A DNA stretch of 64,000 nucleotides from a virus. A program made the translations under genes and the position numbers. This document shows positions 22,022 through 47,200 of this stretch, in pieces (within the stretch, counting starts at the first letter, position 1; each line of letters begins with the position of its first letter). The stretch is taken from the IMG/VR virus record IMGVR_UViG_3300021378_000004; one strand, 5' to 3'. Below the pieces are notes generated by a model. That model was not told the DNA's origin. It ran no database searches and saw only the letters and a program-made list of their open reading frames with translations.

Positions 22022-22034
22022 AAAGGATAACATT

Positions 22035-32923: not shown

Positions 32924-33146
32924 GTATACAGTAAAACCTCTAGAAGAGGGTGATGAATACGAAATAGATATTAAGTCAGATGAATTACAGGCTTATCTTA
33001 AAGAAAATAATTGTATTAAAGTTCTTACGTTTCCAAATATTGTTTCTGGTCAAGGAAGTTTATTGTCAAAGACTGACAATGGCTGGAAAGATAATCTCGC
33101 TAGAATTAAAGAAAATTCTGGTAGAGGTAACACAATAAAGACATAG
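32916..33146 (+). CDS. Small conserved protein (FmdB-like N-terminus, GTG start)
   Basis: MPKYTVK...KTDNGWKDNLARIK. Confidence 0.55.
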   Translation: MPKYTVKPLEEGDEYEIDIKSDELQAYLKENNCIKVLTFPNIVSGQGSLLSKTDNGWKDNLARIKENSGRGNTIKT

Positions 33147-33155
33147 GAATAATTA

Positions 33156-33422
33156 ATGAATACATTTTTTATAGTAGTAACATTTGTAATGGCATCAGCT
33201 ACTCAGCTTGATAGACCACTATATGTATTTGCTAAACCTAATTTTGATGAGTATATGCAATGTTGGAATTACGTACAAGCAAATAACATGAATATATATA
33301 GAGCTGCAGCTAATGAATATAACTTTAAACATAAGCCTGAAGCTATATTTTGCGTTAACCAAGAAGCAATAAAGGAAATATTTAATTATAATGCACCAAC
33401 AATTGAAAAGAAAAATATTTAG
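33156..33422 (+). CDS. Hypothetical exported protein
   Basis: Hydrophobic N-terminus and two Cys. Confidence 0.55.
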   Translation: MNTFFIVVTFVMASATQLDRPLYVFAKPNFDEYMQCWNYVQANNMNIYRAAANEYNFKHKPEAIFCVNQEAIKEIFNYNAPTIEKKNI

Positions 33423-34083
33423 CCATGACACGATTGATATCGGTTATCAAGACTTGGACGCTACAACTACAAAATCAGGCAGAACTTATAATACTCCTGA
33501 TGGTAAGTCTTATCCTAGTATCACAACAGTTCTAAGCATACTCAGTGAAGATGCTATAAGAGCTTGGCGTGAACGCGTAGGTGTAGAACAAGCTGATATG
33601 ATTAGTGGCAAAGCATCTAGACGCGGGACAAAGGTTCATAGCATATTAGAAAAGTATTTAAATAATGAAGATACATCAAAAGAATTACCGCACATCAGAC
33701 AAAGCCTTGCAAATCTCAAACCTATACTTGATGAAAGTATTGGAACGATATTCGGTCTCGAGGTGCCTTTATTTAGTCATCATTTACAATTAGCTGGAAG
33801 ATGCGATTGCATCGCACAGTTTAATGGCGTACCCTCAATAATTGATTTTAAAACTTCTAAATATATTAAGAAGAAAGAAAGAATCACAAACTATTTCGCG
33901 CAAGGTGCAGCATATGCTATCATGTACGAAGAAAGAACGGGAATGAAAATACCCAATATAGTAATTATAATGGATGTTGATCATGAAAAACCGTGTGTGT
34001 TCGTAGAACATAGAGATAACTGGACTAAACTATTAGAGGATACGATTGATGAATATAGAAAACGAAAGATGTTTGGACACTAA
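33391..34083 (+). CDS. PD-(D/E)xK exonuclease
   Basis: YPSITTVL, RGTKVH, AGRCDCI, IIDFKTS, QGAAYA. Confidence 0.88.
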   Translation: MHQQLKRKIFSHDTIDIGYQDLDATTTKSGRTYNTPDGKSYPSITTVLSILSEDAIRAWRERVGVEQADMISGKASRRGTKVHSILEKYLNNEDTSKELPHIRQSLANLKPILDESIGTIFGLEVPLFSHHLQLAGRCDCIAQFNGVPSIIDFKTSKYIKKKERITNYFAQGAAYAIMYEERTGMKIPNIVIIMDVDHEKPCVFVEHRDNWTKLLEDTIDEYRKRKMFGH

Positions 34084-34330
34084 TATGCCAATAGGTTTAA
34101 CAATGATTGTTCAACTAAGATTTGAGTTTGAAGAACTCACTAAAAGCTATAATATGAAAGTATCTGGTTCGGATATAAATACAATAGAATGGTTTATTGA
34201 AAATGGCCACAGGTCAAATTCACTTCGTAATGGATTTAATGATGCATTAACAATAGCGAAGGTAATAAAGGAGTTCTACGATGGCCGAAGAAGAAATGAA
34301 ACAACCGGGCTTTCATCCCGCAGATACTAA
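34046..34330 (+). CDS. Hypothetical protein
   Basis: ORF fills the gap between neighbours. Confidence 0.5.
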   Translation: MMNIENERCLDTNMPIGLTMIVQLRFEFEELTKSYNMKVSGSDINTIEWFIENGHRSNSLRNGFNDALTIAKVIKEFYDGRRRNETTGLSSRRY

Positions 34331-34628
34331 TGGTGATGGCATTGTAACTGACGAAGAGCAGGCAATGTATTTGGAGTTTAAAAGAAAAGAAATGGAAGAC
34401 GCAGACGCACAAAGAGATGCTATTAGAAAAATGGCATGGTTTGCTTTATTTGGATTATTATTATATCCAATTGCAATATTTCTGACTTCATTACTTGGAT
34501 TATCTGAGGCTGCAGGATTAATTGCCGATATTGCACCAACATATTTTGCATCTATTGCTGTTTTAGTTTCAGCATTCTTTGGCGCTGATGCATTAAAAGG
34601 TAAGGCAAGTAAACCGACTAAAAAGTAA
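34281..34628 (+). CDS. Two-TM membrane protein with an N-terminal EF-hand-like loop (holin-like)
   Basis: ADTNGDGIVTDEE; two hydrophobic helices; basic C-terminus. Confidence 0.6.
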   Translation: MAEEEMKQPGFHPADTNGDGIVTDEEQAMYLEFKRKEMEDADAQRDAIRKMAWFALFGLLLYPIAIFLTSLLGLSEAAGLIADIAPTYFASIAVLVSAFFGADALKGKASKPTKK

Positions 34629-34645
34629 AATAAGAGGATTTTGTT

Positions 34646-35455
34646 ATGAAAAGATTGATATATCAAGTTTATACTGGTAAAAAATCGAGGCTATATGATC
34701 ACTGTACAGCCTCGGTTAAAGCCTATTGCAATGAACTTAATACTAAAGAAAAACCTCAAAATCGCGTTGACTATATAGTTCAAACAATTCCAAAAATGAT
34801 GATTAAACCAGACGTATTTGCCACAAATCGTAGTAAAGAGTCATATGAAAAATATGGTGGATTTTTACCAATATATGAAAAAGAAAATGCATTTGATTAT
34901 TGGGATAAGTACGATCAAATAGCGATTATAGATGCTGATATATGGATAAGACCAGGTTCTCCTAATATATTTGATGAACTAAAACCTGAAACTGATTTTG
35001 CTGGAATGGTCGAAAGGTCAGCACCAATTTTACCTTGGTATCAACAAAAATTAACTGGTTATACTAGAATGCAATATAGTAGTTTAAATGATGTTGATTG
35101 GAAATGGAATAACTCTGGTGGTCATTTTTATAATATGGGTTTAATGGTATTAGATAGAAATATTGTAAAATATTTAAAAGGACAAACAGGAAAACAATTT
35201 ATAGAAAGAAGCGAGTTTAAAAGATTTGTTGATGGCTTAGGTGCATGGAAATGGAGTACAGACCAAACTCTTTTAAACTATTGGGTAAAAAAAGAAAATA
35301 TGGTACAAAAAGAATTAAGTTGGAAATGGAATGCATTGTATACAGCAATACCAAATGAAAAAATAAAAGAAGCTTATTTTGTACATTTCTTTCTTAAAGA
35401 CAAATTACCAAACGGTGGTGAAAACGTAAATGAATTAATGGAGATCGTGCAGTGA
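34646..35455 (+). CDS. GT-A glycosyltransferase
   Basis: IIDAD (DxD), YNMGLMV, DQTLLNY, WKWN, FVHF. Confidence 0.8.
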   Translation: MKRLIYQVYTGKKSRLYDHCTASVKAYCNELNTKEKPQNRVDYIVQTIPKMMIKPDVFATNRSKESYEKYGGFLPIYEKENAFDYWDKYDQIAIIDADIWIRPGSPNIFDELKPETDFAGMVERSAPILPWYQQKLTGYTRMQYSSLNDVDWKWNNSGGHFYNMGLMVLDRNIVKYLKGQTGKQFIERSEFKRFVDGLGAWKWSTDQTLLNYWVKKENMVQKELSWKWNALYTAIPNEKIKEAYFVHFFLKDKLPNGGENVNELMEIVQ

Positions 35456-35793
35456 AAATACAAATTGAAATAAGTATGGCTGAATATATAGATAGATATT
35501 CAATATTATTAATAAAGGAAAATAACGAATTAGATGTTTCAAAAGAGATGAGTCAATACGAAAGTCTTGATTTAGAATATCCGGGATTTGATTATTATCT
35601 AAGCATTATGACATCAATTAATGAACAATTGTGGGATTTAGAAGATCTTAAAAGAAAAGGCGTAGAAAGATTTAGTAAAGAAGAATCTGATACTGCATTT
35701 CTTATTACTCAAATAAATGATTTAAGACATGAAACTAAAAAACGTATTGATACGTTCTTTGGAAGCAATTTTACAGAGAAGAAAAGTCATTGA
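35452..35793 (+). CDS. Hypothetical protein of glycosylation clusters
   Basis: E..D...IL.IK, NEQLWDLED, NDLRH..K, EKKS pattern. Confidence 0.6.
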   Translation: MKIQIEISMAEYIDRYSILLIKENNELDVSKEMSQYESLDLEYPGFDYYLSIMTSINEQLWDLEDLKRKGVERFSKEESDTAFLITQINDLRHETKKRIDTFFGSNFTEKKSH

Positions 35794-36560
35794 AACATAT
35801 AGCCTTAAGATCTAAAAGCATAAGAAGCGGTGATAGACCTTATACCACTCCTGGATTAGGCGACAGATCTCACAGTTTACTGTTGGCATATCAATATGGA
35901 AAAGCACACAATACTCCTGTAACAATTCACATTACAGATGATAAATGGAGTATTGCTGGTGGTGTGCCTTCTGCCAAAAAGAAAAAATCATGGATAGAGC
36001 TTATGAGTCTATTTCCAGCTGGTGCAGTTTATTTAGAACCACATCCTGTTGAAAATTTACCAGAAGTTGATTGGATTAAATATCTAAAAGCAAAAGGTAT
36101 TGATGCATACATTTATCATTATGCAGATACAATTCATATGCATCCTAATGAGACTCGTGTTGGTATTGAAATGTCACAATATATAAAGGAGTCACCTAAG
36201 TTAAAACCTATTGTTGATAATGGTTGGCTGCCAGATGAATTTATTACTGTACAGTGGGATTCTACTGATTCACAAAGAACAATACCAGAAGCAATGAGAA
36301 AAGAAATACACGATAAGTATGGATGTCCAGCATTATATGTAGGTGGCGAAGGTAAGGGACTATTAAAAAGTTCAATACCACATATTGGATTAGCAATGGC
36401 AAACGCAAAGTTCCATGTTGGTAGTGATTCTGGTATGATGCATGTTGCTCAACTATATATGAATTATGAAGACATACATATATATGACAGACCGGGCTCA
36501 TATAGGTCTCATCATTTAGTAAGAGCAATTAATAATGGAAGTAAATATTTTAAGGTATAA
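35790..36560 (+). CDS. GT9/heptosyltransferase-like glycosyltransferase
   Basis: GLGD near the N-terminus; FHVGSDSGMMHVA. Confidence 0.7.
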   Translation: MKHIALRSKSIRSGDRPYTTPGLGDRSHSLLLAYQYGKAHNTPVTIHITDDKWSIAGGVPSAKKKKSWIELMSLFPAGAVYLEPHPVENLPEVDWIKYLKAKGIDAYIYHYADTIHMHPNETRVGIEMSQYIKESPKLKPIVDNGWLPDEFITVQWDSTDSQRTIPEAMRKEIHDKYGCPALYVGGEGKGLLKSSIPHIGLAMANAKFHVGSDSGMMHVAQLYMNYEDIHIYDRPGSYRSHHLVRAINNGSKYFKV

Positions 36561-36565
36561 TTATC

Positions 36566-37168
36566 ATGATGGCAACTCACACAAATAAAGACTCTCGCAA
36601 TTTAATGCACGTAATAAAACCTAATACTGTTGGTGCAGAAATTGGTGTTTGGTTTGGTAATACATCAACACAATTTTTAAAAAAAGGTTTAAAAAAACTA
36701 TACATGGTTGATCCGTATTCTGTTGAACCATATAAAGAAAACTCAGAAATGACGTATCAAGAATATCTTGCAAAATATCAACCAATTACTGGAGAATTTG
36801 CAGAAGTAGGTTTTCAAAAATATTATGATAAAGTTTATGCAGAAATTAATTCAAGATTTAGAACATACAAAGAAGTTGAAATCTGCCGTATGTTGTCTGG
36901 CGAATGGTTTAAAAAATATAGTGACGTTGAGTTAGACTGGATCTATATTGATGGCGATCATTCATACGAAGGATGCTTAAGTGATTTAGAAAATGCATTA
37001 AAAGCAGTAAAAGCAGGCGGTCTTATATTAGGTGATGATTATGGTTGGCCTAATAATAAATGGAATAAACCAGGTGTAACAAAAGCAGTTAACGAATTTA
37101 TAAATACCAATAACTTAACTAATAGCATGTTTAGACATGGTGAAACACAATTTGAGATAAGAATATGA
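36566..37168 (+). CDS. Class I SAM methyltransferase (Methyltransf_24-like)
   Basis: GAEIGVWFG, VDPY, DWIYIDGDHSYE, GDDY. Confidence 0.88.
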   Translation: MMATHTNKDSRNLMHVIKPNTVGAEIGVWFGNTSTQFLKKGLKKLYMVDPYSVEPYKENSEMTYQEYLAKYQPITGEFAEVGFQKYYDKVYAEINSRFRTYKEVEICRMLSGEWFKKYSDVELDWIYIDGDHSYEGCLSDLENALKAVKAGGLILGDDYGWPNNKWNKPGVTKAVNEFINTNNLTNSMFRHGETQFEIRI

Positions 37169-38253
37169 AAAAATATACAGTTACTTATGAAGTAGATGGT
37201 CCAGATATTGCAAAAATAGCACATGAAATTGCTATTGGGCAAAGTATAGGAAATCCAAATATTAGATCTGAAATAGAAAACGCAACAAATGTAAAAGATT
37301 ATATAGCGCAAGTTAAAAGCATAGATAAAAATATCGTTGTTATAGAATTCCCTTTAGGTGCATTTGATTGGCCAAATATTAATCAATTGATGTGCATCAT
37401 TATGGGTGGTCATACTGATATTTTAGGTGTTGATAGATGTAGAGTAATAGACATAGACATACCAATTAAAACAATTGAACCACTTTTAGGTATGAGCGGA
37501 TGGAAAAAAAGATTAAATGCAGAAAATAGACCATTATTTGGCGCTATTGTTAAGCCTAAGTCTGGTCTTAATAAAGAACAGTTGTTATCTTTAGTTAAAG
37601 ATATGATGTATGGCGGAGCAGATTTTATTAAAGAAGATGAGATCATGGCAAATAACTCTTATTTACCTCTGCAAGAAAGAATTGATGCTATTGAACATCT
37701 TAAAACAATATCTGGTTGGAAAGGTTTTTACGCTTATTGTATTAACGCTGATCCTTTAGAGTTAGTAGACAACTGTGCAGCAGTAAAAATGGCTACAAGT
37801 AGTGAAGGAACTGTTGGCGGTGTGCATATTAACTTTTGGTCTGGACTTGGTGCATATACAACTGCTAGAAAATACTGGATTGCAACACACTACCAAAGAT
37901 CTGGCATACGCATTTTGACTGATCCAAGTAATAAATATTCTTTATCATGGCCAGTTTTAGTAAAATTAGGCTGCATGGCGGGGATTGATAGTATGCATGT
38001 TGGCATGCTAGGTGGATATTATCCAGAAGGTGAAAGCGAAACAGAAACACTTGAAGCAATAAAGATTTGTAATGAGTATAATGTTATTCCTTCGTTAAGT
38101 TGTGGTATGAATCCAGTACTTGCAAGAGAAATTAAAGAACGCATAGGTAACGATTGGATGGGATCAGTTGGCGGTTGGTTACACACTGGTGATGGTACAA
38201 CTGGTAATACTTTGTACCATAAAGTAAAACAAATGAGTGAGGCAATGTTATAA
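37165..38253 (+). CDS. RuBisCO-like protein (form IV)
   Basis: IAIGQSIG, RPLFGAIVKPKSGL, GGADFIKEDE (carbamylation motif), HYQRSG, AGIDSMHVG, SCGM, VGGW. Confidence 0.88.
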   Translation: MKKYTVTYEVDGPDIAKIAHEIAIGQSIGNPNIRSEIENATNVKDYIAQVKSIDKNIVVIEFPLGAFDWPNINQLMCIIMGGHTDILGVDRCRVIDIDIPIKTIEPLLGMSGWKKRLNAENRPLFGAIVKPKSGLNKEQLLSLVKDMMYGGADFIKEDEIMANNSYLPLQERIDAIEHLKTISGWKGFYAYCINADPLELVDNCAAVKMATSSEGTVGGVHINFWSGLGAYTTARKYWIATHYQRSGIRILTDPSNKYSLSWPVLVKLGCMAGIDSMHVGMLGGYYPEGESETETLEAIKICNEYNVIPSLSCGMNPVLAREIKERIGNDWMGSVGGWLHTGDGTTGNTLYHKVKQMSEAML

Positions 38254-38987
38254 TGAAAGTGATACTACCTATGGCTGGAAACGGTCAGAGATTTTTTGAT
38301 GATGGATATGATTTACCTAAACCACTAATAGATATTAAAGGAAAACCAATGTTTAAGCGTGTAGTTGATAACCTACACCTTAATGGAAATGTAAAATTAA
38401 CTTGTATTGTAAGACAAGATCATGTTGACGAATACGACATTGATAAAAGAATAAAAGAGCATTATGAAGATGCTAATGTACTAGTTTCACCAGGTCCAAC
38501 TGAAGGAGCTGCTTGTACAGTAAGATTGGCCACTTCTATGTTTGGTGGCGAGGCTATGATAGTTGCTAATTGCGATCAACTTATGGATTGGGACTATAAA
38601 AAGTTTTACAAAATGATTGAAATGAGTTTATATCCTGGTGGTCTTATACCAGTTTTTGAACCTAATCATAACGAACCAAAACATAGTTACTGTAACGTTG
38701 ATTCTAATGACAACTTATTGCAACTTAAAGAAAAAGAAATTATAAGTGATCTTGCTACAGTTGGTGTCTACTATTTTGGCGATGAAGTTAAATGGATTAA
38801 AGCTCATGAAAAACAAATGGATTCAAATGATAGAACTAATAATGAATTTTATTTAGCTCCAACTTATAATTACTTAGAAGAAAATGTTGGTGTGTTTCGT
38901 GTAAAAAAAATGATAGGTATGGGAACTCCAGAAGAATTAAATGATTTAAAAAATAGTGAATATTGGGATAAACTTGAGTACTTATAA
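38253..38987 (+). CDS. Sugar-phosphate nucleotidyltransferase-like protein
   Basis: PMAGNGQRF, PKPLI, ANCDQ, ATVGVYYF, NEFYLAPTYN, MGTPEEL. Confidence 0.85.
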   Translation: MKVILPMAGNGQRFFDDGYDLPKPLIDIKGKPMFKRVVDNLHLNGNVKLTCIVRQDHVDEYDIDKRIKEHYEDANVLVSPGPTEGAACTVRLATSMFGGEAMIVANCDQLMDWDYKKFYKMIEMSLYPGGLIPVFEPNHNEPKHSYCNVDSNDNLLQLKEKEIISDLATVGVYYFGDEVKWIKAHEKQMDSNDRTNNEFYLAPTYNYLEENVGVFRVKKMIGMGTPEELNDLKNSEYWDKLEYL

Positions 38988-39718
38988 TGAAAATAGCAAT
39001 TTGCATCTCTGGTATTGCCAGAGGTAACGTAAAAAGAAATATTGGTTATTTAAAAAAAGCATTTCCTGATGCACATATGTTTTTTTCTTCATGGGAAGAG
39101 CACAAAAATAACGAATCAGAAAAGTATAATTCTACATATTATCCTGAGCCACAAATGCATTATAATCCGTGGAAAGATTGTGTAACCGATAATCCTCATC
39201 CAAAATATCATGCTTACAAAAAAGATTTTGTAAATGGAACTGGTCAATCCAGCCAAGGTAAACTTCTTAACGCTACAAAACAAATTATAGCTCACGCTTA
39301 TCAAGTTGCTGATTTACCAGAAGAATATGATATGATTATAAGATCAAGATGGGATACAGTAGTTTCTGAAATTGTAAATTTTAATAATTACTTAGAGCAA
39401 TCTTATAATGAAAATATAGCAATTGGTTTTGCTATACGTGGAGGCAGATGGACAAATTTAAATCAGTTTAAAGATGTTGATCATGTTTTTATAGATGAAA
39501 ATACTGATCAAATGTGGAGTAGAGATTGGAGTTATTGGTTAAATGATAATTTAATATTTCATCCACGTAACTTGTATGATACTGAATTAGTACATAAATT
39601 ACATAAAGAAAAAAGATTATGGCCTGCTGAGTATGGTTGGTATCAAATGTTAAGTACTTTAGATAATCATCATTGTGTTTATGGCGGCGCAGTACTAGAA
39701 AAATTTTGGCGTAATTAA
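38987..39718 (+). CDS. Putative glycan-modifying protein
   Basis: MKIAICISG...YDMIIRSRWD pattern typical of viral glycan clusters. Confidence 0.55.
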   Translation: MKIAICISGIARGNVKRNIGYLKKAFPDAHMFFSSWEEHKNNESEKYNSTYYPEPQMHYNPWKDCVTDNPHPKYHAYKKDFVNGTGQSSQGKLLNATKQIIAHAYQVADLPEEYDMIIRSRWDTVVSEIVNFNNYLEQSYNENIAIGFAIRGGRWTNLNQFKDVDHVFIDENTDQMWSRDWSYWLNDNLIFHPRNLYDTELVHKLHKEKRLWPAEYGWYQMLSTLDNHHCVYGGAVLEKFWRN

Positions 39719-39719
39719 A

Positions 39720-40145
39720 ATGCTTGATATATTAATGCAAAGGTATAAATCTAATAGACAAAAACATTCTTTATTTTATGAAAAAGAATTATTTCAATAT
39801 AGGCATAAACCTTTAAATGTTTTACAAGTTGGCGTTGAAAATAGTATAGCTGTTTGGCATAAATTTTTAGAAAGATCTAACATTTATTGTGTTGATGAAT
39901 TTGATAAAAAACAACCAGATAAATACAATTATCTAGAAGAAAAAAGAATATTTTGGTCAAGATGTGATACATTAAATCAAAAAAATATTAATGATGTTAT
40001 GATAAACGTATGGAACAAACCAAGATTTGATATTATAATAGATAATGTTAATAATTTTGCATATTCTAGAAAAGATTATTTAAGAAGATATTGTATTGGA
40101 AAATACTATATTGAAGACGAAACAGAAGTAAAGGTAATTAAATGA
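39720..40145 (+). CDS. Degenerate or truncated SAM methyltransferase
   Basis: LNVLQVGV, SIAVW, FDIIID; short for the fold. Confidence 0.5.
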   Translation: MLDILMQRYKSNRQKHSLFYEKELFQYRHKPLNVLQVGVENSIAVWHKFLERSNIYCVDEFDKKQPDKYNYLEEKRIFWSRCDTLNQKNINDVMINVWNKPRFDIIIDNVNNFAYSRKDYLRRYCIGKYYIEDETEVKVIK

Positions 40146-40840
40146 AAGCTTTTGCAATAGTAGTACCAGACAATAAAATTTCAATGGCTGGTTTTAATGA
40201 ACTTAAAGAAAGTTATGAAAAGTATGGCCATGAAGACGGTCTTGAAATGCATGAAGCTATTTCACTTGATAAAGTGGAATTAATAGCAGGCGGTAACGGT
40301 TTAACTTGGAATTATCCATGGGAAGGCAAAGAATCAGATATTAAAAGTGGACTAATTAAATCTGCTTACTCAACAGCAGATAAAAGAAAACGTATTTCAT
40401 GCTTTATGAGCCACTGGTATTTATGGCAAAAATGTGTCAAACTTGATGAAACTATATTAATTTTAGAACATGATTCAAGACTTGTAAAAAGATTGCCAGC
40501 AGATAGTACATTTGAAAAAGCTAATTACGATATTATAGGCATAAACGATCCATCAATGGCAACAAGAAAATCAAAGATTTATCATGATAAAATACTAGAT
40601 AGAATTGATTTCTTTCAACCAGTTCCAAGGATTGACGAATTTAACATTCCGCAAGGATTAGCCGGAAATTCGGCATACGTTATAAAACCAGCAGGTGCAA
40701 AACATATGCTAGAATTATCTCAAGAATACGGCATGTGGCCTAATGACGCGCTAATGTGCTATCAATTAGTACCTAAGCTTGGTGTAACACGTAATTTCTA
40801 TACAAGAATACAAGGATTGAGGTCAACAACAACACTATGA
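40142..40840 (+). CDS. GT25-family glycosyltransferase
   Basis: SCFMSHWYLW, LILEHD, AYVIKPAGA. Confidence 0.8.
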   Translation: MKAFAIVVPDNKISMAGFNELKESYEKYGHEDGLEMHEAISLDKVELIAGGNGLTWNYPWEGKESDIKSGLIKSAYSTADKRKRISCFMSHWYLWQKCVKLDETILILEHDSRLVKRLPADSTFEKANYDIIGINDPSMATRKSKIYHDKILDRIDFFQPVPRIDEFNIPQGLAGNSAYVIKPAGAKHMLELSQEYGMWPNDALMCYQLVPKLGVTRNFYTRIQGLRSTTTL

Positions 40841-41478
40841 AAATGTATGTAATAACAATAACAGAAAATGACAGATCTGTGCAGGTTGCTGATAGATGTG
40901 TTAAAAGTGGTTTAGTATTTGGTTATAAAATAAACAAGCATAAAGCTTACACTCCAGAAAATTGTGATGTTTATGAAGAGTTAAAAAAACTTAAGTATCC
41001 TTCTGCAGCATTTAATGAGATATATAGCAGACCAGAAAATTGTATAGCAGGGTTTTTAAGCCATCACAGTTTGTGGAAAAAATGTGTTAAGTCTAAAGAG
41101 CCTATAGTCATATTTGAGCATGACGCTGTATTAACTGGTGATATTCCACAAATGATGATGTTTGATATTTTAAACCTTGGTAAACCGTCATACGGCAAAT
41201 TCAATACACCGTCGTTTATAGGTTATGGATCACTTGTATCTAAACCATATTTTCCAGGTGCACATGCATATAGATTAACACCAAAAGGTGCACAACAATT
41301 GATTGATGAGTGCGTATTTTCTGCAGGTCCAACAGACATATACATACATTCAAGTAAGTTTACACTAGGTGAATATTATCCTTGGCCAGCAGAAGCAAGA
41401 GACAGTTTTACTACAATACAACAAAAACAAGGATGTTACGCAAAACATAATTATGGTGAAACCTATGAAATTATATGA
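40837..41478 (+). CDS. GT25-family glycosyltransferase (paralog)
   Basis: FLSHHSLW, VIFEHD, AYRLTPKGA. Confidence 0.8.
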   Translation: MKMYVITITENDRSVQVADRCVKSGLVFGYKINKHKAYTPENCDVYEELKKLKYPSAAFNEIYSRPENCIAGFLSHHSLWKKCVKSKEPIVIFEHDAVLTGDIPQMMMFDILNLGKPSYGKFNTPSFIGYGSLVSKPYFPGAHAYRLTPKGAQQLIDECVFSAGPTDIYIHSSKFTLGEYYPWPAEARDSFTTIQQKQGCYAKHNYGETYEII

Positions 41479-42109
41479 TGAAGCATTTATTACTGGTTGT
41501 GATGAAGGTCATGAATGGATGCTCCCTTGGTTTTTTAAAAATTATAAAGCTCATTGTGAAAAGCCATTAGTATTTTCTGATTTTGGTTTAAGTAAAGAAG
41601 GACTTAGGCTAGTTCGATCAAATGCGCATGCTGTTATGAATTTAGGTGAAGTGGAAGAAAAAGGTTGGTTTAGAAAACCATTATCAATGTGGAAATCTCC
41701 TTCGAAAAAAACTGTATGGATAGATTTAGACTGTGAAGTTAAAGATAATATTGATGGTATATTTGATTTATTAGAACCTAATAAGTTAGCAATGGTTAAA
41801 GATGAACCGTGGATATTGCGTCGTAAGCACCTTTGGCACAACTCAGGCATTGTCGGCTTTATAGGTAAACCTACAATATTATCATTATGGTGTGGTGCTG
41901 TCAGAAATAATCATACTACTGATATAGGAGATCAAGAGATACTTGATAAATTATTAAACCCTATTACAAAAATTACTTATATTAAGGATTTACCTAACGA
42001 ATATAACGTAATGAGAATACAAACTGAAGTAGATGGCTATAATGGCAAAATACGAATTATGCATTGGACTGGAAAAAAAGGCAAAGATAAGATTAGGAGT
42101 ATGTTATGA
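41465..42109 (+). CDS. GT-A glycosyltransferase (GT8-like)
   Basis: WIDLD, NSGIV, GDQEIL, EYN, IMHWTG. Confidence 0.75.
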   Translation: MKLYDEAFITGCDEGHEWMLPWFFKNYKAHCEKPLVFSDFGLSKEGLRLVRSNAHAVMNLGEVEEKGWFRKPLSMWKSPSKKTVWIDLDCEVKDNIDGIFDLLEPNKLAMVKDEPWILRRKHLWHNSGIVGFIGKPTILSLWCGAVRNNHTTDIGDQEILDKLLNPITKITYIKDLPNEYNVMRIQTEVDGYNGKIRIMHWTGKKGKDKIRSML

Positions 42110-42726
42110 ATAAGGTAGTACATATTGTTGGAAACGGTGATCAATCTAGTTTGTACTTAAAAGAAACGCGAGTTGGAATGAAACTCACTTGCAATATTCC
42201 CCCTTGGCCTGTACCTGGTGCATATGGTACAATTATGGTTGACTTTAAAATGATGAGAGCTTTACATGAAGGATCATTATCTATTCCTGGCAATTGGATT
42301 TTAGGCATGAGACCTAAAATTTGGATGGATCAACAACCTACATTTTATGTTAAACATTCTTCTCAAGTAAGAGAATTTTATACTGTTTTGCCAAAATATG
42401 TAGCAAATTATACAGATTTTAATTGTGGTCACATGGCAGTACATTATGCAGCAAATAAAGTAAAAGCAGATGAAGTACACTTATATGGATTTGACTCTAT
42501 ATTTGATTTTAATTTAAGAAGTTGTTCTGATTTCTATCTTAATTCGGACAGAGGTAATATGAATAACCACAGATTAGCCAATAATTGGCGCCCAGTGTGG
42601 GAAAATATGTTTAAAGAATTTCCAAATACTAAATTTGTATTGCACCATATACACAATGCTATTAAAGTTAGAATAACAAACAATGTTCATATTGTAACAT
42701 ACGATTCAAAAACTCAAATGGATTAG
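42106..42726 (+). CDS. Sialyltransferase/Maf-like glycosyltransferase
   Basis: HIVGNG.S, CGHMAVHYA, EVHLYGFD. Confidence 0.55.
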   Translation: MNKVVHIVGNGDQSSLYLKETRVGMKLTCNIPPWPVPGAYGTIMVDFKMMRALHEGSLSIPGNWILGMRPKIWMDQQPTFYVKHSSQVREFYTVLPKYVANYTDFNCGHMAVHYAANKVKADEVHLYGFDSIFDFNLRSCSDFYLNSDRGNMNNHRLANNWRPVWENMFKEFPNTKFVLHHIHNAIKVRITNNVHIVTYDSKTQMD

Positions 42727-42798
42727 TTAACATGTTCACAACAAACTTTGAAAAAAGTGAAAAAAAAGGTGTACAAACCTCTTTTTTTATGGTATAAT
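42727..42798 (+). promoter_or_regulatory. AACATGTT palindrome plus early promoter
   Basis: TTAACATGTT at 42727; TGTACA-N17-TATAAT 42770-42798. Confidence 0.75.
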
Positions 42799-42833
42799 AT
42801 ATCTATTAAAATGAAAAAAGCGGAGAAAATAAT

Positions 42834-43022
42834 ATGTCAAAAGTTAAAAGTTTAGTTATGGATTCAATGGAAGAGTTTTACAATAACGCAGAGCATATCG
42901 TTAAGAATGCCAAGTCTTTATCTCAAGCCAAAGAACATGTTGAAATCATGAGAAATAGAGAGTTTAATTGGTTAGATGAATCTCAAATTTCTGATGAAGT
43001 TGAGATGTATTGGTATGCTTAA
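42834..43022 (+). CDS. Hypothetical early protein
   Basis: GCGGAG SD after the promoter. Confidence 0.6.
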   Translation: MSKVKSLVMDSMEEFYNNAEHIVKNAKSLSQAKEHVEIMRNREFNWLDESQISDEVEMYWYA

Positions 43023-43563
43023 TAATACTGATTATTTAAAAGGTTTACTGTTTGGTGTATTTGGTATGCTAGTATTAACCTATTGTACACCAGTAAACGC
43101 TCAAACACATAAACAAGAAGAAACAACCTGCTTAGCAAAAAATATGTATTGGGAAGCACGCAATCAATCTGTGGAAGGAATGATTGCTGTAGCGTATGTT
43201 ACTATGAATAGAGTTCATGATGAAAGATTTCCAAATACAGTATGTCAAGTTGTGTATCAAGGTCAGCATTCTAAATGGTTTTTAGAAAAACATAATAAGT
43301 GGCATCCTCTTAGAGATAGATGTCAATTTAGTTGGTATTGTGATGGAAAAGCCGATGATGTGCCATCTATAGATCATGTATTGTATGATAGTATAAAAGT
43401 TATTGCATCTAAAATAGTATATGGTTATAATTCCATATTAATGTATGATTTCACTAGAGGCGCAACACATTATCATGCTGATTATGTATCTCCAGACTGG
43501 GCATCTAGAAAAACACATACAGTTACAATTGGTAAACATATATTCTATAGATGGGAACAATAA
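43015..43563 (+). CDS. Cell wall hydrolase (SleB/Hydrolase_2)
   Basis: CLAKNMYWEARNQ, VAYVTMNRV, FPNTVCQVV, CQFSWYCDG, GATHYHADYVSPDW, HIFYR. Confidence 0.92.
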   Translation: MLNNTDYLKGLLFGVFGMLVLTYCTPVNAQTHKQEETTCLAKNMYWEARNQSVEGMIAVAYVTMNRVHDERFPNTVCQVVYQGQHSKWFLEKHNKWHPLRDRCQFSWYCDGKADDVPSIDHVLYDSIKVIASKIVYGYNSILMYDFTRGATHYHADYVSPDWASRKTHTVTIGKHIFYRWEQ

Positions 43564-43789
43564 ATGGATAAATGGTTAAAAGCAATGAATAGTTGTTTAG
43601 ATCACGAAGGTAAAGTAATTCCATACTTTTGGAGAAATAACATATGAGTATTGATTCTGAATTAATGATAGCTGAGTTTATTGTAGAACATCACGGCCAT
43701 AAAATAGAACCAGGCAATATACACGAAAACAATCAGACAGTTATTGATTGGGTTAATAACGCAAAGAAAATAATAGAGGATAAGCGTAA

Positions 43790-44164
43790 ATGAGTAATGA
43801 ATTGGTAAAAAGACCAGAAATATCTTATAAATTTAATGAAGATATGTACGTTGATGAATTAATGGACGTTATTAACAGTACGTATAAAGGGCATTACTCT
43901 AGAGAACAGTTTCAAGCAACAGAGTTTATAATTGATGGTGGTCATGGCGCAGGATTTTGTATCGGTAATATAATGAAATATGCGCAAAGGTATGGCAAAA
44001 AAGGTTCAATTGAAGATGCAAGAAAAGATATAATGAAAGTATTACATTATGCAACTATTATGTTACATGTACATGATAGAGATCAATTCGATAATATAGC
44101 CGACATAGATAGTAGATTGTCTATGGGCGATTCAGATGAAGAATACAAATACAACACCGATTAA
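43790..44164 (+). CDS. DUF3310-like (putative nucleotide kinase) protein
   Basis: HY...FCIGNIMKYAQRYGKKG...DIMKVLHY. Confidence 0.65.
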   Translation: MSNELVKRPEISYKFNEDMYVDELMDVINSTYKGHYSREQFQATEFIIDGGHGAGFCIGNIMKYAQRYGKKGSIEDARKDIMKVLHYATIMLHVHDRDQFDNIADIDSRLSMGDSDEEYKYNTD

Positions 44165-44222
44165 TGTCAAAAAATTGACAAATATGTGTGACATATTATT
44201 GCAAGTGTCAATTTTTTGACAT
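44164..44222. repeat. Nested palindromic element
   Basis: ATGTCAAAAAATTGACA...TGTCAATTTTTTGACAT inverted arms with an internal AATATGT-GTG-ACATATT. Confidence 0.85.
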
Positions 44223-44224
44223 GA

Positions 44225-44232
44225 TATAAATA
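44225..44232 (+). promoter_or_regulatory. Late promoter
   Basis: TATAAATA. Confidence 0.75.
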
Positions 44233-44250
44233 ATATGGTAAGGAGCAATT

Positions 44251-44658
44251 ATGCCAAAAATATCTGAAAATACTGGCGTTGAAATGCCAATACGAAATCT
44301 ACTGTCAATTATTCTGGCAGTGGCTGTAGGCGTATGGGCATATTTTGGTATCATAGAAAGACTGAATAAGTTAGAAACAGACATTACACTAATGTCATCT
44401 GACTTAGAGAAAAATACAGAGTTTCGTATCAAATGGCCACGTGGTGATATGGGTTCTCTACCTGCAGATGCAGAACAATTCATGTTAATTGAACATCTTG
44501 CTGGTCAGTTAGAAAAACTCGCAAATAATATTGAAACTGGCAAAGCTCCGTACGATCAACAACAAAAGCTTACACTTGATTTTTATAAGTCGAGAATTGA
44601 AAAACTTGAAGATCAAATAGAGAAGCTAAAAGATAAAGTATTAAACGGAAAACACTAA
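44251..44658 (+). CDS. Membrane-anchored coiled-coil protein
   Basis: N-terminal TM segment, EFRIKWPRG, coiled coil. Confidence 0.65.
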   Translation: MPKISENTGVEMPIRNLLSIILAVAVGVWAYFGIIERLNKLETDITLMSSDLEKNTEFRIKWPRGDMGSLPADAEQFMLIEHLAGQLEKLANNIETGKAPYDQQQKLTLDFYKSRIEKLEDQIEKLKDKVLNGKH

Positions 44659-44876
44659 TGGAAATATTTACAGGTTTTATTTTATTAATGTTTATGAGTG
44701 GAGACGTTAAACCGACTGAGTTTACACCTCGCGACTCGATGATGGAATGTTTGAAAGTGAAGAGAAAGATTAAAAGGACTCAAGGTCCTGGTGGTCCTAG
44801 GTGGGTTTGCAAACAAGGCAAACTTGAAATGGAAATTAAAAACGGTGAAAAACACCCACTGAAAATACTCGAATGA
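44658..44876 (+). CDS. Small exported protein with two Cys
   Basis: Coupled to the upstream gene; CLKVKRKI...WVCK. Confidence 0.55.
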   Translation: MEIFTGFILLMFMSGDVKPTEFTPRDSMMECLKVKRKIKRTQGPGGPRWVCKQGKLEMEIKNGEKHPLKILE

Positions 44877-46418: not shown

Positions 46419-46607
46419 GTGCGAACTAAGCAAATCAACAGGCCAGATAGTGGTGCACTAGCTCTTTTTGCGTGTCTTCGCTATGAGGAAGCAACATTAA
46501 AAAATGTTACAGACTTTGAAGAACGGTGGGACATAACAGATGCAGAACGTCAAATTATTCTTAAATGGATAACAAAGCGTATGGAAGATATAAAAAGCAA
46601 GTTATAA
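46419..46607 (+). CDS. Hypothetical protein
   Basis: GAGGAG SD, GTG start. Confidence 0.55.
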   Translation: MRTKQINRPDSGALALFACLRYEEATLKNVTDFEERWDITDAERQIILKWITKRMEDIKSKL

Positions 46608-46610
46608 ATA
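46603..46610 (+). promoter_or_regulatory. Late promoter of tmRNA
   Basis: TATAAATA just upstream of the tmRNA acceptor piece. Confidence 0.7.
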
Positions 46611-46615
46611 CTACA

Positions 46616-46952
46616 TAACGATGAAACAAAGCGAAAGGTTTGCTGGACTCGGGGGCGGTACCCGACAGCTCCACCAAAATAAGTCTTATGGATGATGTAC
46701 TACTTTGGGAATATAGAAAGACATTAGTTAAGTGGATATGCATAAATAATTATTCACCACGACACGCAAGACTTATCTTGATGGGGCTGAAATAGGATCG
46801 ACAGGTACGTAATAGCGATGTGGAGTTATCCGGATGTAAGCTCGGTTAATGCGAACAAAACGACAAATGCAAACGATAATTTTGCACCTCAAGAGTTAGC
46901 TCAAGCAGCTTAATTCTTATGAGCCCGGAGGAGCTTGGAAACAGAATCCTCC
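46616..46952 (+). ncRNA. ssrA: Permuted two-piece tmRNA (alphaproteobacterial type), tag ANDNFAPQELAQAA
   Basis: The 3' tRNA-like half GGACTCGGGGGCGGTACCCGACAGCTCCACCA (ends 46676) precedes the 5' half GGGGCTGAAATAGGATCGAC (46783); tag frame 46869-46913; ends approximate. Confidence 0.93.
46688..46795 (+). CDS. 35-aa ORF in the tmRNA intervening segment
   Basis: MDDVLLWEYRKTLVKWICINNYSPRHARLILMGLK; no clear SD. Confidence 0.3.
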   Translation: MDDVLLWEYRKTLVKWICINNYSPRHARLILMGLK

Positions 46953-46954
46953 AC

Positions 46955-47200
46955 AGATTTCCTGAGGTGAGTACGTGTTGCAACACTACTTATAAAAAAA
47001 CCGGGATTCACGTGTGCACTTTACGAGGTGCGGCGACGTAGGTGGGCTACCAAGACGGATAAGGTAGACTCGATATAAGAACGTAAAATTACCTACACGG
47101 CGGGGCGGGCTGGACGCACGAGGGAACTAAAATAGTCCTGCTAAAAAAAGTGTGATGACTTAATACATCCGCGTGGAGGAATTGTTACCTCCACACCTTT
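46955..47200 (+). ncRNA. Unclassified GC-rich structured RNA candidate
   Basis: Non-coding, GC-rich for this genome, several hairpins and a long-range GTAGGT/ACCTAC pairing. Confidence 0.5.

What the first reader, a model, noticed from the sequence alone, without database searches (positions are those of the whole stretch)
37165..38987. Phage-encoded RuBisCO-like protein coupled to a nucleotidyltransferase within a glycosylation island
Seen: a compact 362-aa protein with KPKSGL and DFIKEDE motifs, translationally coupled between a methyltransferase and an NTP-transferase, among many glycosyltransferases. Established: form IV RLPs do not fix CO2; they do enolate chemistry on sugar phosphates (methionine salvage, branched-sugar catabolism). 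Inference: here the RLP acts biosynthetically, making an unusual or branched sugar phosphate that the neighbour activates as an NDP-sugar for virion or host-surface glycosylation. It should not be read as a carbon-fixation gene.
Basis: partly seen in the sequence, partly recalled or inferred. Interest (0 to 1): 0.8.

Follow-up and report, generated by a model that had tools for sequence, protein, structure and literature searches.

The report
Phage RuBisCO-like enzyme paired with nucleotidyltransferase
A marine T4-like phage carries a RuBisCO relative that cannot fix CO2; across phages, SAR11, Legionella and tiny archaea it is always next to, or fused with, a sugar-activating enzyme in surface-sugar gene clusters, which points to an untested sugar-building role.

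Summary
ORF 37165-38253 encodes a 362-aa RuBisCO large-subunit homologue. It overlaps a methyltransferase gene upstream (ATGA) and an NTP-transferase gene downstream (TAATG). It lies in a 12-gene block holding five glycosyltransferase(-like) genes, three with direct support, and two methyltransferases, in an uncultured marine T4-like myophage.

It is not a carboxylase. In 68 diverse family members K175, K177, K201, D203 and E204 are invariant. E60, N123, H294 and K334 are invariantly G, G, Q and Y. It is not MtnW or OiaX, because it scores far below their curated cut-offs. In my tree the family is its own clade (SH-aLRT 100).

It appears to be the 'Form IV-like' phage RLP clade of Jaffe et al. 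2018, so a phage RLP is not new.

What I did not find in the searchable literature:
- The NTP-transferase lies within a few kb in 72 of 75 viral loci, and within three genes in 41 of 44 cellular loci.
- Thirty-three protein clusters are natural RLP-NTP-transferase fusions.
- Cellular members sit in LPS or capsule loci of SAR11, Legionella, CPR bacteria and DPANN archaea.

The substrate, the nucleotide and the glycan target remain unknown, and nothing supports a 'branched' sugar.

The parts
34646..35455 (+). 269-aa GT8-like glycosyltransferase candidate (cluster c3). It lies directly upstream of the RLP in many relatives.
   Evidence: Homologues in 41 loci. Conserved IDADIY (DxD-type) motif. 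Atlas feature hits to viral clusters in which 12-13% of members carry Glyco_transf_8 (a lead only). No Pfam or PDB sequence hit.
35452..35793 (+). 113-aa protein of unknown function (cluster c15).
   Evidence: Homologues in 27 loci. No Pfam or PHROG hit. Not related to the cupin of the distant loci by hhalign.
35790..36560 (+). 256-aa GT9 (heptosyltransferase)-like candidate (cluster c20).
   Evidence: Atlas feature hit, score 0.94, to a viral cluster in which 32% of members carry Glyco_transf_9 (a lead). GSDSGMMH-type motif in alignment A6. No PDB sequence hit.
36566..37168 (+). 200-aa class I SAM methyltransferase. Its stop overlaps the RLP start (ATGA).
   Evidence: Pfam Methyltransf_24 4.9e-14 and TylF-like tail. 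hhalign relates it to the methyltransferase next to the RLP in distant loci. Junction read.
37165..38253 (+). 362-aa RuBisCO-like protein of the 'IV-like' clade. It keeps the enolisation residues and lacks the carboxylation residues.
38253..38987 (+). 244-aa sugar-phosphate nucleotidyltransferase. Its start overlaps the RLP stop (TAATG).
   Evidence: Pfam NTP_transferase 3e-12. NCBIfam hits only to sugar-1-phosphate nucleotidyltransferases, all below cut-off. PDB 4evw and HddC-type. G9, G11 and R13 invariant. Linked or fused to the RLP.
38987..39718 (+). 243-aa DUF7796 protein with a GT-A glycosyltransferase fold. Third most conserved partner (63 loci).
   Evidence: DUF7796 in 5 of 14 aligned members, best E 5.5e-12. 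AlphaFold model pLDDT 77.6, pTM 0.82. Foldseek probability 1.00 to GnT-I, SpsA, GfsA and TarS/TarP, TM about 0.5.
39720..40145 (+). 141-aa methyltransferase-like protein (cluster c11).
   Evidence: hhalign probability 96% to cluster c21 and 83% to the Methyltransf_24 cluster. No direct Pfam hit.
40142..40840 (+). GT25 glycosyltransferase.
   Evidence: Pfam Glyco_transf_25 9.1e-13.
40837..41478 (+). GT25 glycosyltransferase, paralogue of the previous gene.
   Evidence: Pfam Glyco_transf_25 1.8e-11. Same cluster c5.
41369..42109 (+). About 220-246-aa conserved protein of unknown function (cluster c14). The start is uncertain, because the listed GTG overlaps the previous gene by 110 nt.
   Evidence: Homologues in 28 loci in the same position. 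No Pfam or PHROG hit.
42106..42726 (+). 206-aa conserved protein of unknown function (cluster c17). Last gene of the block.
   Evidence: Homologues in 26 loci. No Pfam or PHROG hit.

Best explanation
The gene encodes a non-carboxylating member of a distinct RuBisCO-superfamily clade. This clade appears to be the 'Form IV-like' RLPs of Jaffe et al. 2018.

Shown here:
- The protein keeps the Mg2+/carbamate enolisation machinery: K175, K177, K201, D203 and E204.
- It has lost every residue specific to CO2 addition and C-C cleavage.
- Its gene is a conserved two-gene unit with a sugar-phosphate nucleotidyltransferase. The two are often fused into one protein.
- The unit sits inside glycan-assembly loci.

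Inferred mechanism:
- The RLP enolises a ketose phosphate and reprotonates it, giving an isomer or epimer. The substrate is most likely a ketose 1-phosphate or pentulose phosphate, because the proximal phosphate site is kept while the distal site (H298 to D or I) is degraded.
- That sugar phosphate is converted by the adjacent transferase into an NDP-activated donor. This happens either directly or after an aldose-ketose step. In most relatives a small metal cupin could supply that step.
- The DUF7796 GT-A enzyme and the GT8-, GT9- and GT25-type transferases then build a methylated oligosaccharide.
- The most likely acceptor is a lipooligosaccharide-type molecule of the SAR11-like host during infection.
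For: Fold and family:
- Pfam domain hits.
- Model pLDDT 93.1 and Foldseek TMq 0.81-0.84 to form III RuBisCOs and to RLP 3nwr.

Active site across 68 diverse members:
- K175, K177, K201, D203 and E204 are present in 68 of 68.
- E60G, T65N and N123G in 68 of 68; H294Q and K334Y in every member with a residue at that position (65 of 68; 3 gapped).
- Position 295 is K or R in 59 of the 65 members with a residue there.
- S379, G381 and G403 are kept.

Distinct clade:
- SH-aLRT 100 against form I, form III/III-like and OiaX-type sequences.
- 28 representative clusters at E<=1e-30, then a gap to about 1e-22.

Linkage:
- The transferase lies within a few kb on the same strand in 72 of 75 loci with room. 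It abuts the RLP in the close clade and lies on the other side of it in the roughly 40%-identity clade.
- It lies within three genes in 41 of 44 cellular loci.
- 33 clusters of 637-672-aa RLP-NTP_transferase fusions.

Context:
- Phosphomannomutase-like, SDR epimerase/dehydratase, cupin, methyltransferase, HAD, DegT and UDP-glucose dehydrogenase genes in viral loci.
- KpsC/S-type, KdsB, Wzx, WavE, PMT_2 and phosphonate-decoration genes beside the fusions.
- GmhA, HldE parts, GT9 and KdsB beside the RLP in a complete Pelagibacter chromosome.
- LicD diverging from RLP-NT in three Legionella species.

The same transferase family is fused to other sugar-phosphate enzymes in cultured cyanophages: HAD_2 in S-PRM1, and the ribulose-5-phosphate enzyme DHBP synthase in S-SKS1.

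Population: a 2,590-nt contig spanning 36631-39220 (methyltransferase, RLP and NT genes into the next gene) lies at 0 differences in an independent marine metagenome.
Against: - No biochemical datum exists for any member.
- The substrate, the nucleotide, the order of the two steps and the acceptor are all inferred.
- The transferase resembles sugar-1-phosphate enzymes, whereas known RLP substrates and products carry primary phosphates. The window has no cupin, mutase or GDPD-like gene to bridge the two.
- Most relatives also keep a GDPD-like protein that the model does not explain.
- The tree was a quick search. It lacked named MtnW, Photo, DeepYkr and form II references.
- GT8 and GT9 are leads only.
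- The phage also has an hmC/UDP-galactofuranose locus, so DNA cannot be excluded as a glycan acceptor.
Confidence: 0.65

Rival explanations
1. The pair makes an NDP-activated phospho-substituent rather than a glycosyl donor. The RLP forms a ketose, alditol or short keto-alcohol phosphate with a primary phosphate. The transferase makes the CDP/NDP-X diester, as TarI, IspD, AbpA or the C. jejuni CDP-6-fructose enzyme do. X-phosphate is then attached to a glycan by LicD- or sulfatase-type phosphotransferases.
For: - LicD diverges from RLP-NT in three Legionella species.
- Sulfatase-family (EptA/LtaS-type) genes and phosphonate-cytidylyl genes flank the fusions.
- A GDPD-like phosphodiesterase-fold protein co-occurs in 33 viral loci and many cellular loci.
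- A related transferase is fused to DHBP synthase, whose product has a primary phosphate.
- Transferases acting on ketose 6-phosphate are documented (PMC10918830, abstract).
- The N-terminus has weak IspD similarity.
Against: - The window has no LicD, sulfatase-type or GDPD-like gene. It carries only Leloir-type glycosyltransferase candidates.
- The best NCBIfam and PDB matches of the transferase are sugar-1-phosphate enzymes.
Confidence: 0.2
2. The RLP is a salvage enzyme of the methionine-salvage or 5'-deoxyadenosine type. It clears by-products of the radical SAM enzymes that accompany it, and its link to the transferase is incidental.
For: - Radical SAM/SPASM genes lie near the RLP in several loci.
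- One locus has a PNP_UDP_1 nucleoside phosphorylase nearby.
- The characterised RLPs MtnW and the R. rubrum enzyme work in such salvage (established knowledge).
Against: - The MtnW equivalog models score 47-55 bits against cut-offs of 409-514.
- No eIF-2B/MtnA, MtnB or MtnK family appears in any annotated neighbourhood.
- The window has no radical SAM gene.
- Fusion to the transferase in 33 clusters is hard to explain as incidental.
Confidence: 0.07
3. It is a carbon-fixing RuBisCO, acting as an auxiliary metabolic gene for CO2 fixation or the AMP/nucleotide pathway.
For: The best sequence and structure matches are form III and II/III RuBisCOs.
Against: - E60, N123, H294 and K334 are replaced in every member that has a residue at those positions.
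- It scores 110 bits against the form III cut-off of 497.
- The loci annotated with Pfam show no AMP phosphorylase, ribose-1,5-bisphosphate isomerase or phosphoribulokinase.
- The host lineage is heterotrophic SAR11-like.
Confidence: 0.02
4. The island glycosylates phage DNA or virion proteins rather than the host surface. The RLP-NT chemistry is as in the best explanation.
For:
- T4-type phages glycosylate their DNA (established knowledge).
Against: - Cellular relatives of the pair lie in LPS or capsule loci.
- GT8, GT9 and GT25 are lipooligosaccharide-type families.
- The island is about 9-10 kb from the hmC locus and is separated from it by replication genes.
Confidence: 0.2

Closest known systems
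'Form IV-like' phage RuBisCO-like proteins (Jaffe, Castelle, Dupont & Banfield 2018, Mol Biol Evol; PMC6389311)
   Same: Found on phage contigs, some classed as Myoviridae, including IMG/VR contigs. Highly divergent from other RLPs, with only partial conservation of key residues. They group with Beckwithbacteria (CPR) sequences. My tree also places a Beckwithbacteria genome sequence inside the family.
   Different: That paper left the function open and treated the clade as essentially viral. Here the clade is shown in SAR11, Legionella, Francisellaceae, Leptospiraceae, Verrucomicrobiota, Planctomycetota, CPR and DPANN genomes. It is linked or fused to a nucleotidyltransferase. I could not compare with their sequences directly.
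Form III / II-III RuBisCO (e.g. Thermococcus kodakarensis 3a12, Methanococcoides burtonii 5mac, 8vgs)
   Same: Best sequence and structure match: phmmer 6e-26, Foldseek TMq 0.81-0.84. Same two-domain fold. K175, K177, K201, D203, E204, S379, G381 and G403 are conserved.
   Different: About 22-24% identity. It is 362 aa rather than about 420-475 aa. E60G, N123G, H294Q and K334Y. It scores 110 bits against the 497-bit cut-off. There are no AMP-pathway neighbours.
MtnW/YkrW 2,3-diketo-5-methylthiopentyl-1-phosphate enolase and the R. rubrum 5-methylthioribulose-1-phosphate isomerase RLP
   Same: They work alike in principle: non-carboxylating enolisation of a ketose 1-phosphate on the RuBisCO scaffold, with K201, D203 and E204 retained (established knowledge of these RLPs).
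   Different: It scores 47-55 bits against cut-offs of 409-514. There are no methionine-salvage neighbours. The context is biosynthetic glycan loci.
OiaX / apiose-pathway RLPs (3-oxo-isoapionate-4-phosphate decarboxylase)
   Same: Nearest named form IV function by NCBIfam (92.5 bits). They act on sugar-acid phosphates. About 27-30% identity to rhizobial OiaX.
   Different: The cut-off is 700 bits. In the references OiaX has A177, H294 and K334, whereas this family has K177, Q294 and Y334. OiaX sits beside four-carbon acid sugar kinases, which are absent here. It falls in a separate clade.
Bifunctional 'make the sugar phosphate, then nucleotidylate it' enzymes: Bcs1/TarIJ (CDP-ribitol), GlmU, HldE, AlgA-type PMI-GMP, and the C. 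jejuni CDP-6-D-glucitol pathway (PMC10918830)
   Same: A nucleotidyltransferase is fused or coupled to the enzyme that prepares its substrate, inside capsule or LPS loci. The cupin plus NTP-transferase pairing resembles a split AlgA-type enzyme.
   Different: I found no described case in which a RuBisCO-fold enzyme is the partner. The product here is unknown.

Membership tests
RuBisCO large-subunit superfamily | N-terminal alpha/beta domain plus C-terminal TIM-barrel catalytic domain | tested here: met
   PF00016 85.4 bits (cut-off 30.1) and PF02788 24.7 bits (cut-off 20.7). Model pLDDT 93.1 and Foldseek TMq 0.81-0.84 to solved RuBisCOs and RLPs.
RuBisCO large-subunit superfamily | Carbamylatable K201 with metal ligands D203 and E204, plus K175 | tested here: met
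   K156, D158, E159 and K130 in the window protein. Invariant in 68 of 68 family members.
Bona fide carboxylating RuBisCO (forms I-III) | Full catalytic set including E60, N123, H294 and K334 (loop 6) | tested here: not met
   G25, G82, Q244 and Y285 in the window protein. The same replacements occur in every member of the 68 that has a residue there. TIGR03326 110 bits against 497, and NF010002 74 bits against 489.
MtnW / DK-MTP-1-P enolase (methionine salvage) | Score above the equivalog cut-off of TIGR03332 or NF007095 | tested here: not met
   47.1 bits against 513.6, and 55.5 bits against 409.
MtnW / DK-MTP-1-P enolase (methionine salvage) | Neighbourhood with MtnA (eIF-2B family), MtnB, MtnK or MtnX | tested here: not met
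   None of these families appears in any Pfam-annotated neighbourhood or among the window genes scanned with Pfam (the window's remaining ORFs were not scanned).
OiaX (3-oxo-isoapionate-4-phosphate decarboxylase) | Score above the NF042437 cut-off, plus an apiose-pathway context (four-carbon acid sugar kinase) | tested here: not met
   92.5 bits against 700. The kinase is present beside the reference OiaX-type genes and absent here. Separate clade.
'Form IV-like' phage/Beckwithbacteria RLP clade (Jaffe et al. 2018) | Borne by myovirus-type phage contigs; groups with Beckwithbacteria sequences; separate from the classical form IV clades | tested here: met
   The window is T4-like. 176 IMG/VR stretches encode relatives. 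Beckwithbacteria locus L122 falls inside the 100%-supported family clade.
Sugar-phosphate nucleotidyltransferase (PF00483) - the neighbour at 38253-38987 | N-terminal G-x-G-x-R nucleotide loop and a GT-A-like Rossmann core | tested here: met
   PF00483 47.1 bits against 21.2. G9, G11 and R13 are invariant, and K23 and P24 nearly so, in 17 diverse members. PDB 4evw 5.8e-12.
Sugar-phosphate nucleotidyltransferase (PF00483) - the neighbour at 38253-38987 | Assignable substrate class (RmlA, GalU, HddC, MurU, IspD and similar equivalogs) | tested here: not met
   All 12 NCBIfam matches lie far below their cut-offs. The best is 46.4 bits against 292. Specificity cannot be assigned.
GT-A glycosyltransferases - the DUF7796 gene at 38987-39718 | GT-A Rossmann-like fold with an acidic metal/nucleotide motif | tested here: inconclusive
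   Foldseek probability 1.00 to GnT-I, SpsA, GfsA and TarS/TarP, but TM only about 0.5 and about 10% identity. R121 and D123 invariant, D115 nearly invariant. Some nucleotidyltransferases of the same fold class also appear among the hits.

The most novel reading that the evidence does not exclude
This clade represents a new, biosynthetic function of the RuBisCO fold. It would be a ketose-phosphate isomerase or epimerase, with signature G60/N65/G123/Q294/Y334 and K175/K177/K201/D203/E204 retained. It works as one unit with a dedicated nucleotidyltransferase, to which it is often covalently fused. Together they would make a so far undescribed activated sugar or phospho-sugar for the lipopolysaccharide or capsule of SAR11, Legionella, CPR bacteria and DPANN archaea. 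Marine myophages would have captured the unit to rewrite the host surface during infection.
Probability: 0.45. Interest if true: 0.85.

Novelty: new variant of a known kind. Interest (0 to 1): 0.7.

Why it matters
Only a handful of RuBisCO-like protein functions are known, and all are catabolic or salvage reactions. A clade that is obligately coupled to nucleotidyl activation in glycan loci would add a biosynthetic role to the RuBisCO fold.

The clade occurs in the most abundant marine bacterium (SAR11), in Legionella, and in ultra-small CPR and DPANN cells, whose surface chemistry is almost unknown.

The natural fusions and the minimal LicD / RLP / NT arrangement in cultivable Legionella species make the question directly testable.

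For phage biology, it implies that abundant pelagic myophages carry a lipooligosaccharide-type toolkit of about 8 kb. Possible uses are blocking superinfection or masking receptors.

It also guards against annotating such genes as viral carbon fixation.

Tried and rejected
- **Cultured phages:** tblastn of the RLP found no match in 50,697 cultured-phage records, and PHROGs has no family for it.
- **Co-folding:** Complex prediction of the RLP with the transferase gave no verdict (score 0.00). This is neither for nor against binding.
- **Promoters and terminators:** the scan over 33000-44800 found no more sites than shuffled sequence, so nothing can be said about transcription units.
- **PDB profile searches:** the 269-aa and 256-aa upstream proteins gave nothing usable.
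- **Missing partners in the window:** hhalign found no window counterpart of the cupin or the GDPD-like protein that accompany the RLP elsewhere. HMM searches of all window ORFs confirmed their absence.
- **Control genomes:** the named control genomes of the genome search rang for PF00016 but returned no loci. MtnW, R. rubrum, Chlorobium and form II references therefore could not be put in the tree. Plasmid-borne form I and OiaX-type sequences and NCBIfam-labelled form III representatives were used instead.
- **Whole genome:** none is held for this window.
- **RNA libraries:** contigs from two marine metatranscriptomic libraries of one study cover parts of the RLP and transferase genes, and one 743-nt contig crosses their junction. 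Such libraries can hold DNA, so this does not show transcription. Stretches without cover mean nothing.
- **Literature:** searches for an RLP function linked to nucleotidyltransferases, capsule or LPS, SAR11 or Legionella returned nothing relevant apart from Jaffe et al. 2018.
- **Branched sugar:** the idea was considered and dropped for lack of any supporting feature.
Full report
**1. What is there**

The window is a gene-dense, 30-37% G+C stretch of an uncultured marine T4-like myophage. It encodes a gp23-type major head protein, UvsW/Dda-type helicase, gp46/47, gp43 polymerase, gp41 helicase, UvsX and RNase H. Its capsid protein is 67.5% identical to Phage C48C1, 62.6% to Methylophilales phage Melnitz and 61.6% to Pelagibacter phage HTVC008M.

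ORF 37165-38253 gives a 362-aa protein with the KPKSGL and DFIKEDE motifs. It passes both Pfam RuBisCO large-subunit models.

Its start overlaps the stop of a Methyltransf_24 gene (ATGA). Its stop overlaps the start of an NTP_transferase gene (TAATG). That gene in turn overlaps the next one (TAATG).

**2. The island**

Twelve same-strand genes from 34646 to 42726 form the block, in this order:
- a GT8-like candidate
- a 113-aa unknown
- a GT9-like candidate
- a methyltransferase
- the RLP
- the nucleotidyltransferase
- a DUF7796 protein
- a second methyltransferase-like protein
- two GT25 enzymes
- two conserved unknowns

The AlphaFold model of the DUF7796 protein (pLDDT 77.6) matches GT-A glycosyltransferases: GnT-I, SpsA, galactofuranosyltransferase GfsA and TarS/TarP. 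Supporting calls for the block are 6, 41, 43, 45, 48, 71, 75, 92, 93, 96 and 97.

GT8 and GT9 rest on protein-language-model leads and motifs only. GT8, GT9 and GT25 are the classical lipooligosaccharide-core families (established knowledge).

**3. What kind of RuBisCO relative**

NCBIfam gives only sub-threshold hits:

| Model | Score (bits) | Cut-off (bits) |
|---|---|---|
| Form III | 110 | 497 |
| OiaX | 92.5 | 700 |
| Form II | 74 | 489 |
| MtnW (two models) | 47-55 | 409-514 |

The best solved relatives are form III and II/III enzymes, at 22-24% identity. The model is confident (pLDDT 93.1).

I aligned 68 diverse family members with a form I reference (Cupriavidus necator CbbL), a form III representative that passes its equivalog cut-off, and OiaX-type RLPs. 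I then read the canonical positions:
- K175, K177, K201, D203 and E204 are present in 68 of 68.
- E60 is G, T65 is N and N123 is G in all 68.
- H294 is Q and K334 is Y in every member with a residue there (65 of 68; 3 gapped). G380 is C in 62 of those 65.
- R295 is K or R in 59 of the 65 members with a residue there.
- H298 is D in 43 members and I in 13, including the window.
- H327 is H in 56.
- S379, G381 and G403 are kept.

The residues for metal binding and proton abstraction survive. Those that position CO2, stabilise the carboxyketone and cleave it do not. It cannot be a carboxylase. Its signature differs from that of the OiaX-type references.

**4. A discrete clade that is mostly cellular**

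An exhaustive HMMER search of 1.84 billion representatives found 28 clusters at E<=1e-30. After a gap come ordinary RuBisCO and RLP sequences at about 26-29% identity.

A maximum-likelihood tree puts all viral, cellular and fused members on one side of a branch, with SH-aLRT 100 and length 0.47. That branch separates them from form I, form III/III-like and OiaX-type sequences. The tree was a quick search with 110 rows.

The window protein lies in a long-branch subclade of compact (about 350-362 aa) phage proteins. That subclade is nested among viral and SAR11 sequences. The branches that are basal when the tree is rooted on a single form I sequence are cellular (the root was not inferred).

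A scan of one genome per prokaryotic species found the family in these groups:
- Pelagibacterales, including a complete Ca. Pelagibacter chromosome
- Legionella nautarum, L. drozanskii and L. maceachernii
- Francisellaceae
- Turneriella
- Verrucomicrobiota, Planctomycetota and Elusimicrobiota
- Patescibacteria, including Beckwithbacteria and Saccharibacteria
- many DPANN archaea

Two 'MAG' hits at 61-72% identity (Balneola and Sphingobacteriales) have the phage gene order and are probably mis-binned phage contigs.

Jaffe et al. 2018 (PMC6389311) already reported about 80 'Form IV-like' RLPs on phage contigs, some of them classed as Myoviridae. Those proteins grouped with Beckwithbacteria and had no known function. 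This appears to be the same clade, so the existence of phage RLPs is known.

**5. The link to the nucleotidyltransferase**

- In 83 fetched loci I called ORFs and searched them with the window proteins. A homologue of the transferase lies on the same strand within a few kb in 72 of the 75 loci that have room for it.
- In the clade at 59% identity or more, it abuts the RLP downstream.
- In the clade at about 40% identity, it lies upstream, usually with a 108-aa cupin between.
- In 41 of 44 cellular loci, a transferase of this family lies within three genes.
- A search for longer proteins found 33 clusters (at 90% identity) of 637-672-aa proteins carrying both domains. One of them stands for 128 sequences, and another was seen on more than 20 contigs.

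Conservation through rearrangement, across domains of life and as a recurrent fusion is strong evidence that the two enzymes act in one pathway.

**6. What the pathway is about**

Other recurrent partners in viral loci are:
- the DUF7796 GT-A protein (63 loci)
- class I methyltransferases, related to each other by hhalign
- a small metal cupin (39 loci), with remote matches to Cupin_2/7 and to a 113-aa mannose-6-phosphate isomerase
- a protein of about 150-250 aa with the HR...E.D...HD motif of glycerophosphodiester phosphodiesterases (33 viral loci and many cellular ones)
- phosphomannomutase-like HAD enzymes
- SDR epimerase/dehydratases
- DUF6071 proteins
- radical SAM/SPASM enzymes

The fusions lie in loci with KpsC/S-type capsule genes, CMP-Kdo synthase, Wzx, WavE and PMT_2. 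Those loci also hold PEP-mutase phosphonate genes with sulfatase-type transferases.

In the complete Pelagibacter genome, the RLP and its transferase sit among GmhA, the two halves of HldE, a GT9 heptosyltransferase and KdsB.

In the three Legionella species, the pair diverges from a LicD-family gene.

In cultured cyanomyophages, which lack the RLP, relatives of the transferase are fused to other sugar-phosphate enzymes. S-PRM1 gp096 has a HAD_2 domain. S-SKS1 SWZG_00042 has 3,4-dihydroxy-2-butanone-4-phosphate synthase, which performs enediol chemistry on ribulose 5-phosphate.

Everything points to the preparation and nucleotidyl activation of an unusual sugar phosphate for a surface glycan.

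**7. Proposed mechanism, and what is inferred**

Shown:
- The enolisation residues are retained and the carboxylation residues are lost.
- The pairing and fusion with the transferase.
- The glycan-locus context.

Inferred:
- The RLP abstracts a proton next to the carbonyl of a ketose phosphate and reprotonates it, giving an epimer or keto-isomer. This resembles RuBisCO's known misfire reactions and the R. rubrum RLP isomerase.
- The kept proximal phosphate site (S379, G381, G403) and the altered distal site (H298 to D or I) suggest a ketose 1-phosphate rather than a bisphosphate.
- The product then reaches the transferase, either directly or after a cupin-catalysed aldose-ketose step.

A serious variant is that the transferase makes an NDP-linked phospho-substituent that is delivered by LicD- or sulfatase-type enzymes. 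I give this variant 0.2.

The window phage lacks the cupin, mutase and GDPD-like genes. Either its compact RLP and transferase suffice, or host enzymes complete the route.

The acceptor in the phage is unknown. The LOS-type transferase set and the SAR11 context favour the host envelope. The hmC/UDP-galactofuranose locus at 20.9-26.1 kb keeps DNA in play as an acceptor.

**8. Occurrence**

No cultured phage record has the RLP. IMG/VR holds at least 176 stretches encoding relatives.

The island is found at high word share in seawater metagenomes of several studies dated 2014-2024. One 2,590-nt contig is identical across the methyltransferase, RLP and transferase genes. RNA-library contigs cover parts of it, but this does not prove transcription.

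**9. Verdict**

The RLP is a member of a known but functionally blank clade. The chemistry remains open but is now readily testable, most easily with the natural fusions and with the Legionella genes.

Noticed in passing
window 46584-47004 (+): ARAGORN calls a permuted (two-piece) tmRNA with tag ANDNFAPQELAQAA. Permuted tmRNAs are typical of Alphaproteobacteria, which fits a SAR11-like host. An earlier scan note (e1-5659875) already covers it.
   Followed up: partly
window 20905-26099 (+): A thymidylate-synthase-like gene, UDP-galactopyranose mutase (GLF, 5.9e-52), an NAD epimerase and a C5 DNA-methylase-like gene lie in a row. It means the phage has a second sugar pathway.
   Followed up: partly
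L143:6001-7428 (Synechococcus phage S-SKS1, SWZG_00042): A 475-aa protein fuses an N-terminal nucleotidyltransferase, related to the window's, to a complete DHBP synthase (RibB) domain (5.4e-65). It lies beside phosphoheptose isomerase and transaldolase. It is deposited only as 'DHBP synthase'. The function of such a fusion is unknown to me.
   Followed up: partly
L144:5341-6726 (Synechococcus virus S-PRM1 gp096) and L137:2758-4128 (Ca. Pelagibacter sp. Uisw_094): HAD_2 phosphatase/mutase-like domains are fused to the same nucleotidyltransferase family. This is shared between cyanophages and SAR11.
   Followed up: partly
P0159, P0169 (726 and 742 aa): These are natural fusions of an eIF-2B-family domain (the ribose-1,5-bisphosphate/MtnA isomerase family) with a full-length RuBisCO. 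They may place two consecutive AMP-pathway steps in one protein. They are unrelated to the window's clade.
   Followed up: no
P0242 (1265 aa): A RuBisCO-family domain is embedded in a 1265-aa protein that also has an APH-type phosphotransferase domain.
   Followed up: no
L090 (Balneola sp. MAG contig) and L091 (Sphingobacteriales MAG, 142-kb contig): Both carry the phage-type island in the phage gene order, at 61-72% RLP identity. They are probably T4-like phage contigs binned into bacterial MAGs.
   Followed up: partly
L123, L127, L128, L138 (Legionella nautarum, L. drozanskii, L. maceachernii): The arrangement is minimal and conserved. A LicD gene, a 323-aa membrane-like protein and a CMD-family gene lie on one strand, diverging from RLP plus transferase on the other. 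It is a compact system in cultivable bacteria, suitable for genetics.
   Followed up: partly
window 42976-43563 (+): A SleB-type cell-wall hydrolase (Hydrolase_2, 5.1e-24) lies directly after the glycosylation block. The same family is near the RLP in locus L087.
   Followed up: no
L003 (NCBI GCA_902725615.1, 356-kb contig) and the locus: The RLP lies in a large cluster with five or more radical SAM/SPASM genes, an aminotransferase, HAD and methyltransferases, on contigs of 100-356 kb. These may be jumbo-phage or cellular contigs. The nature of the contigs was not established.
   Followed up: no
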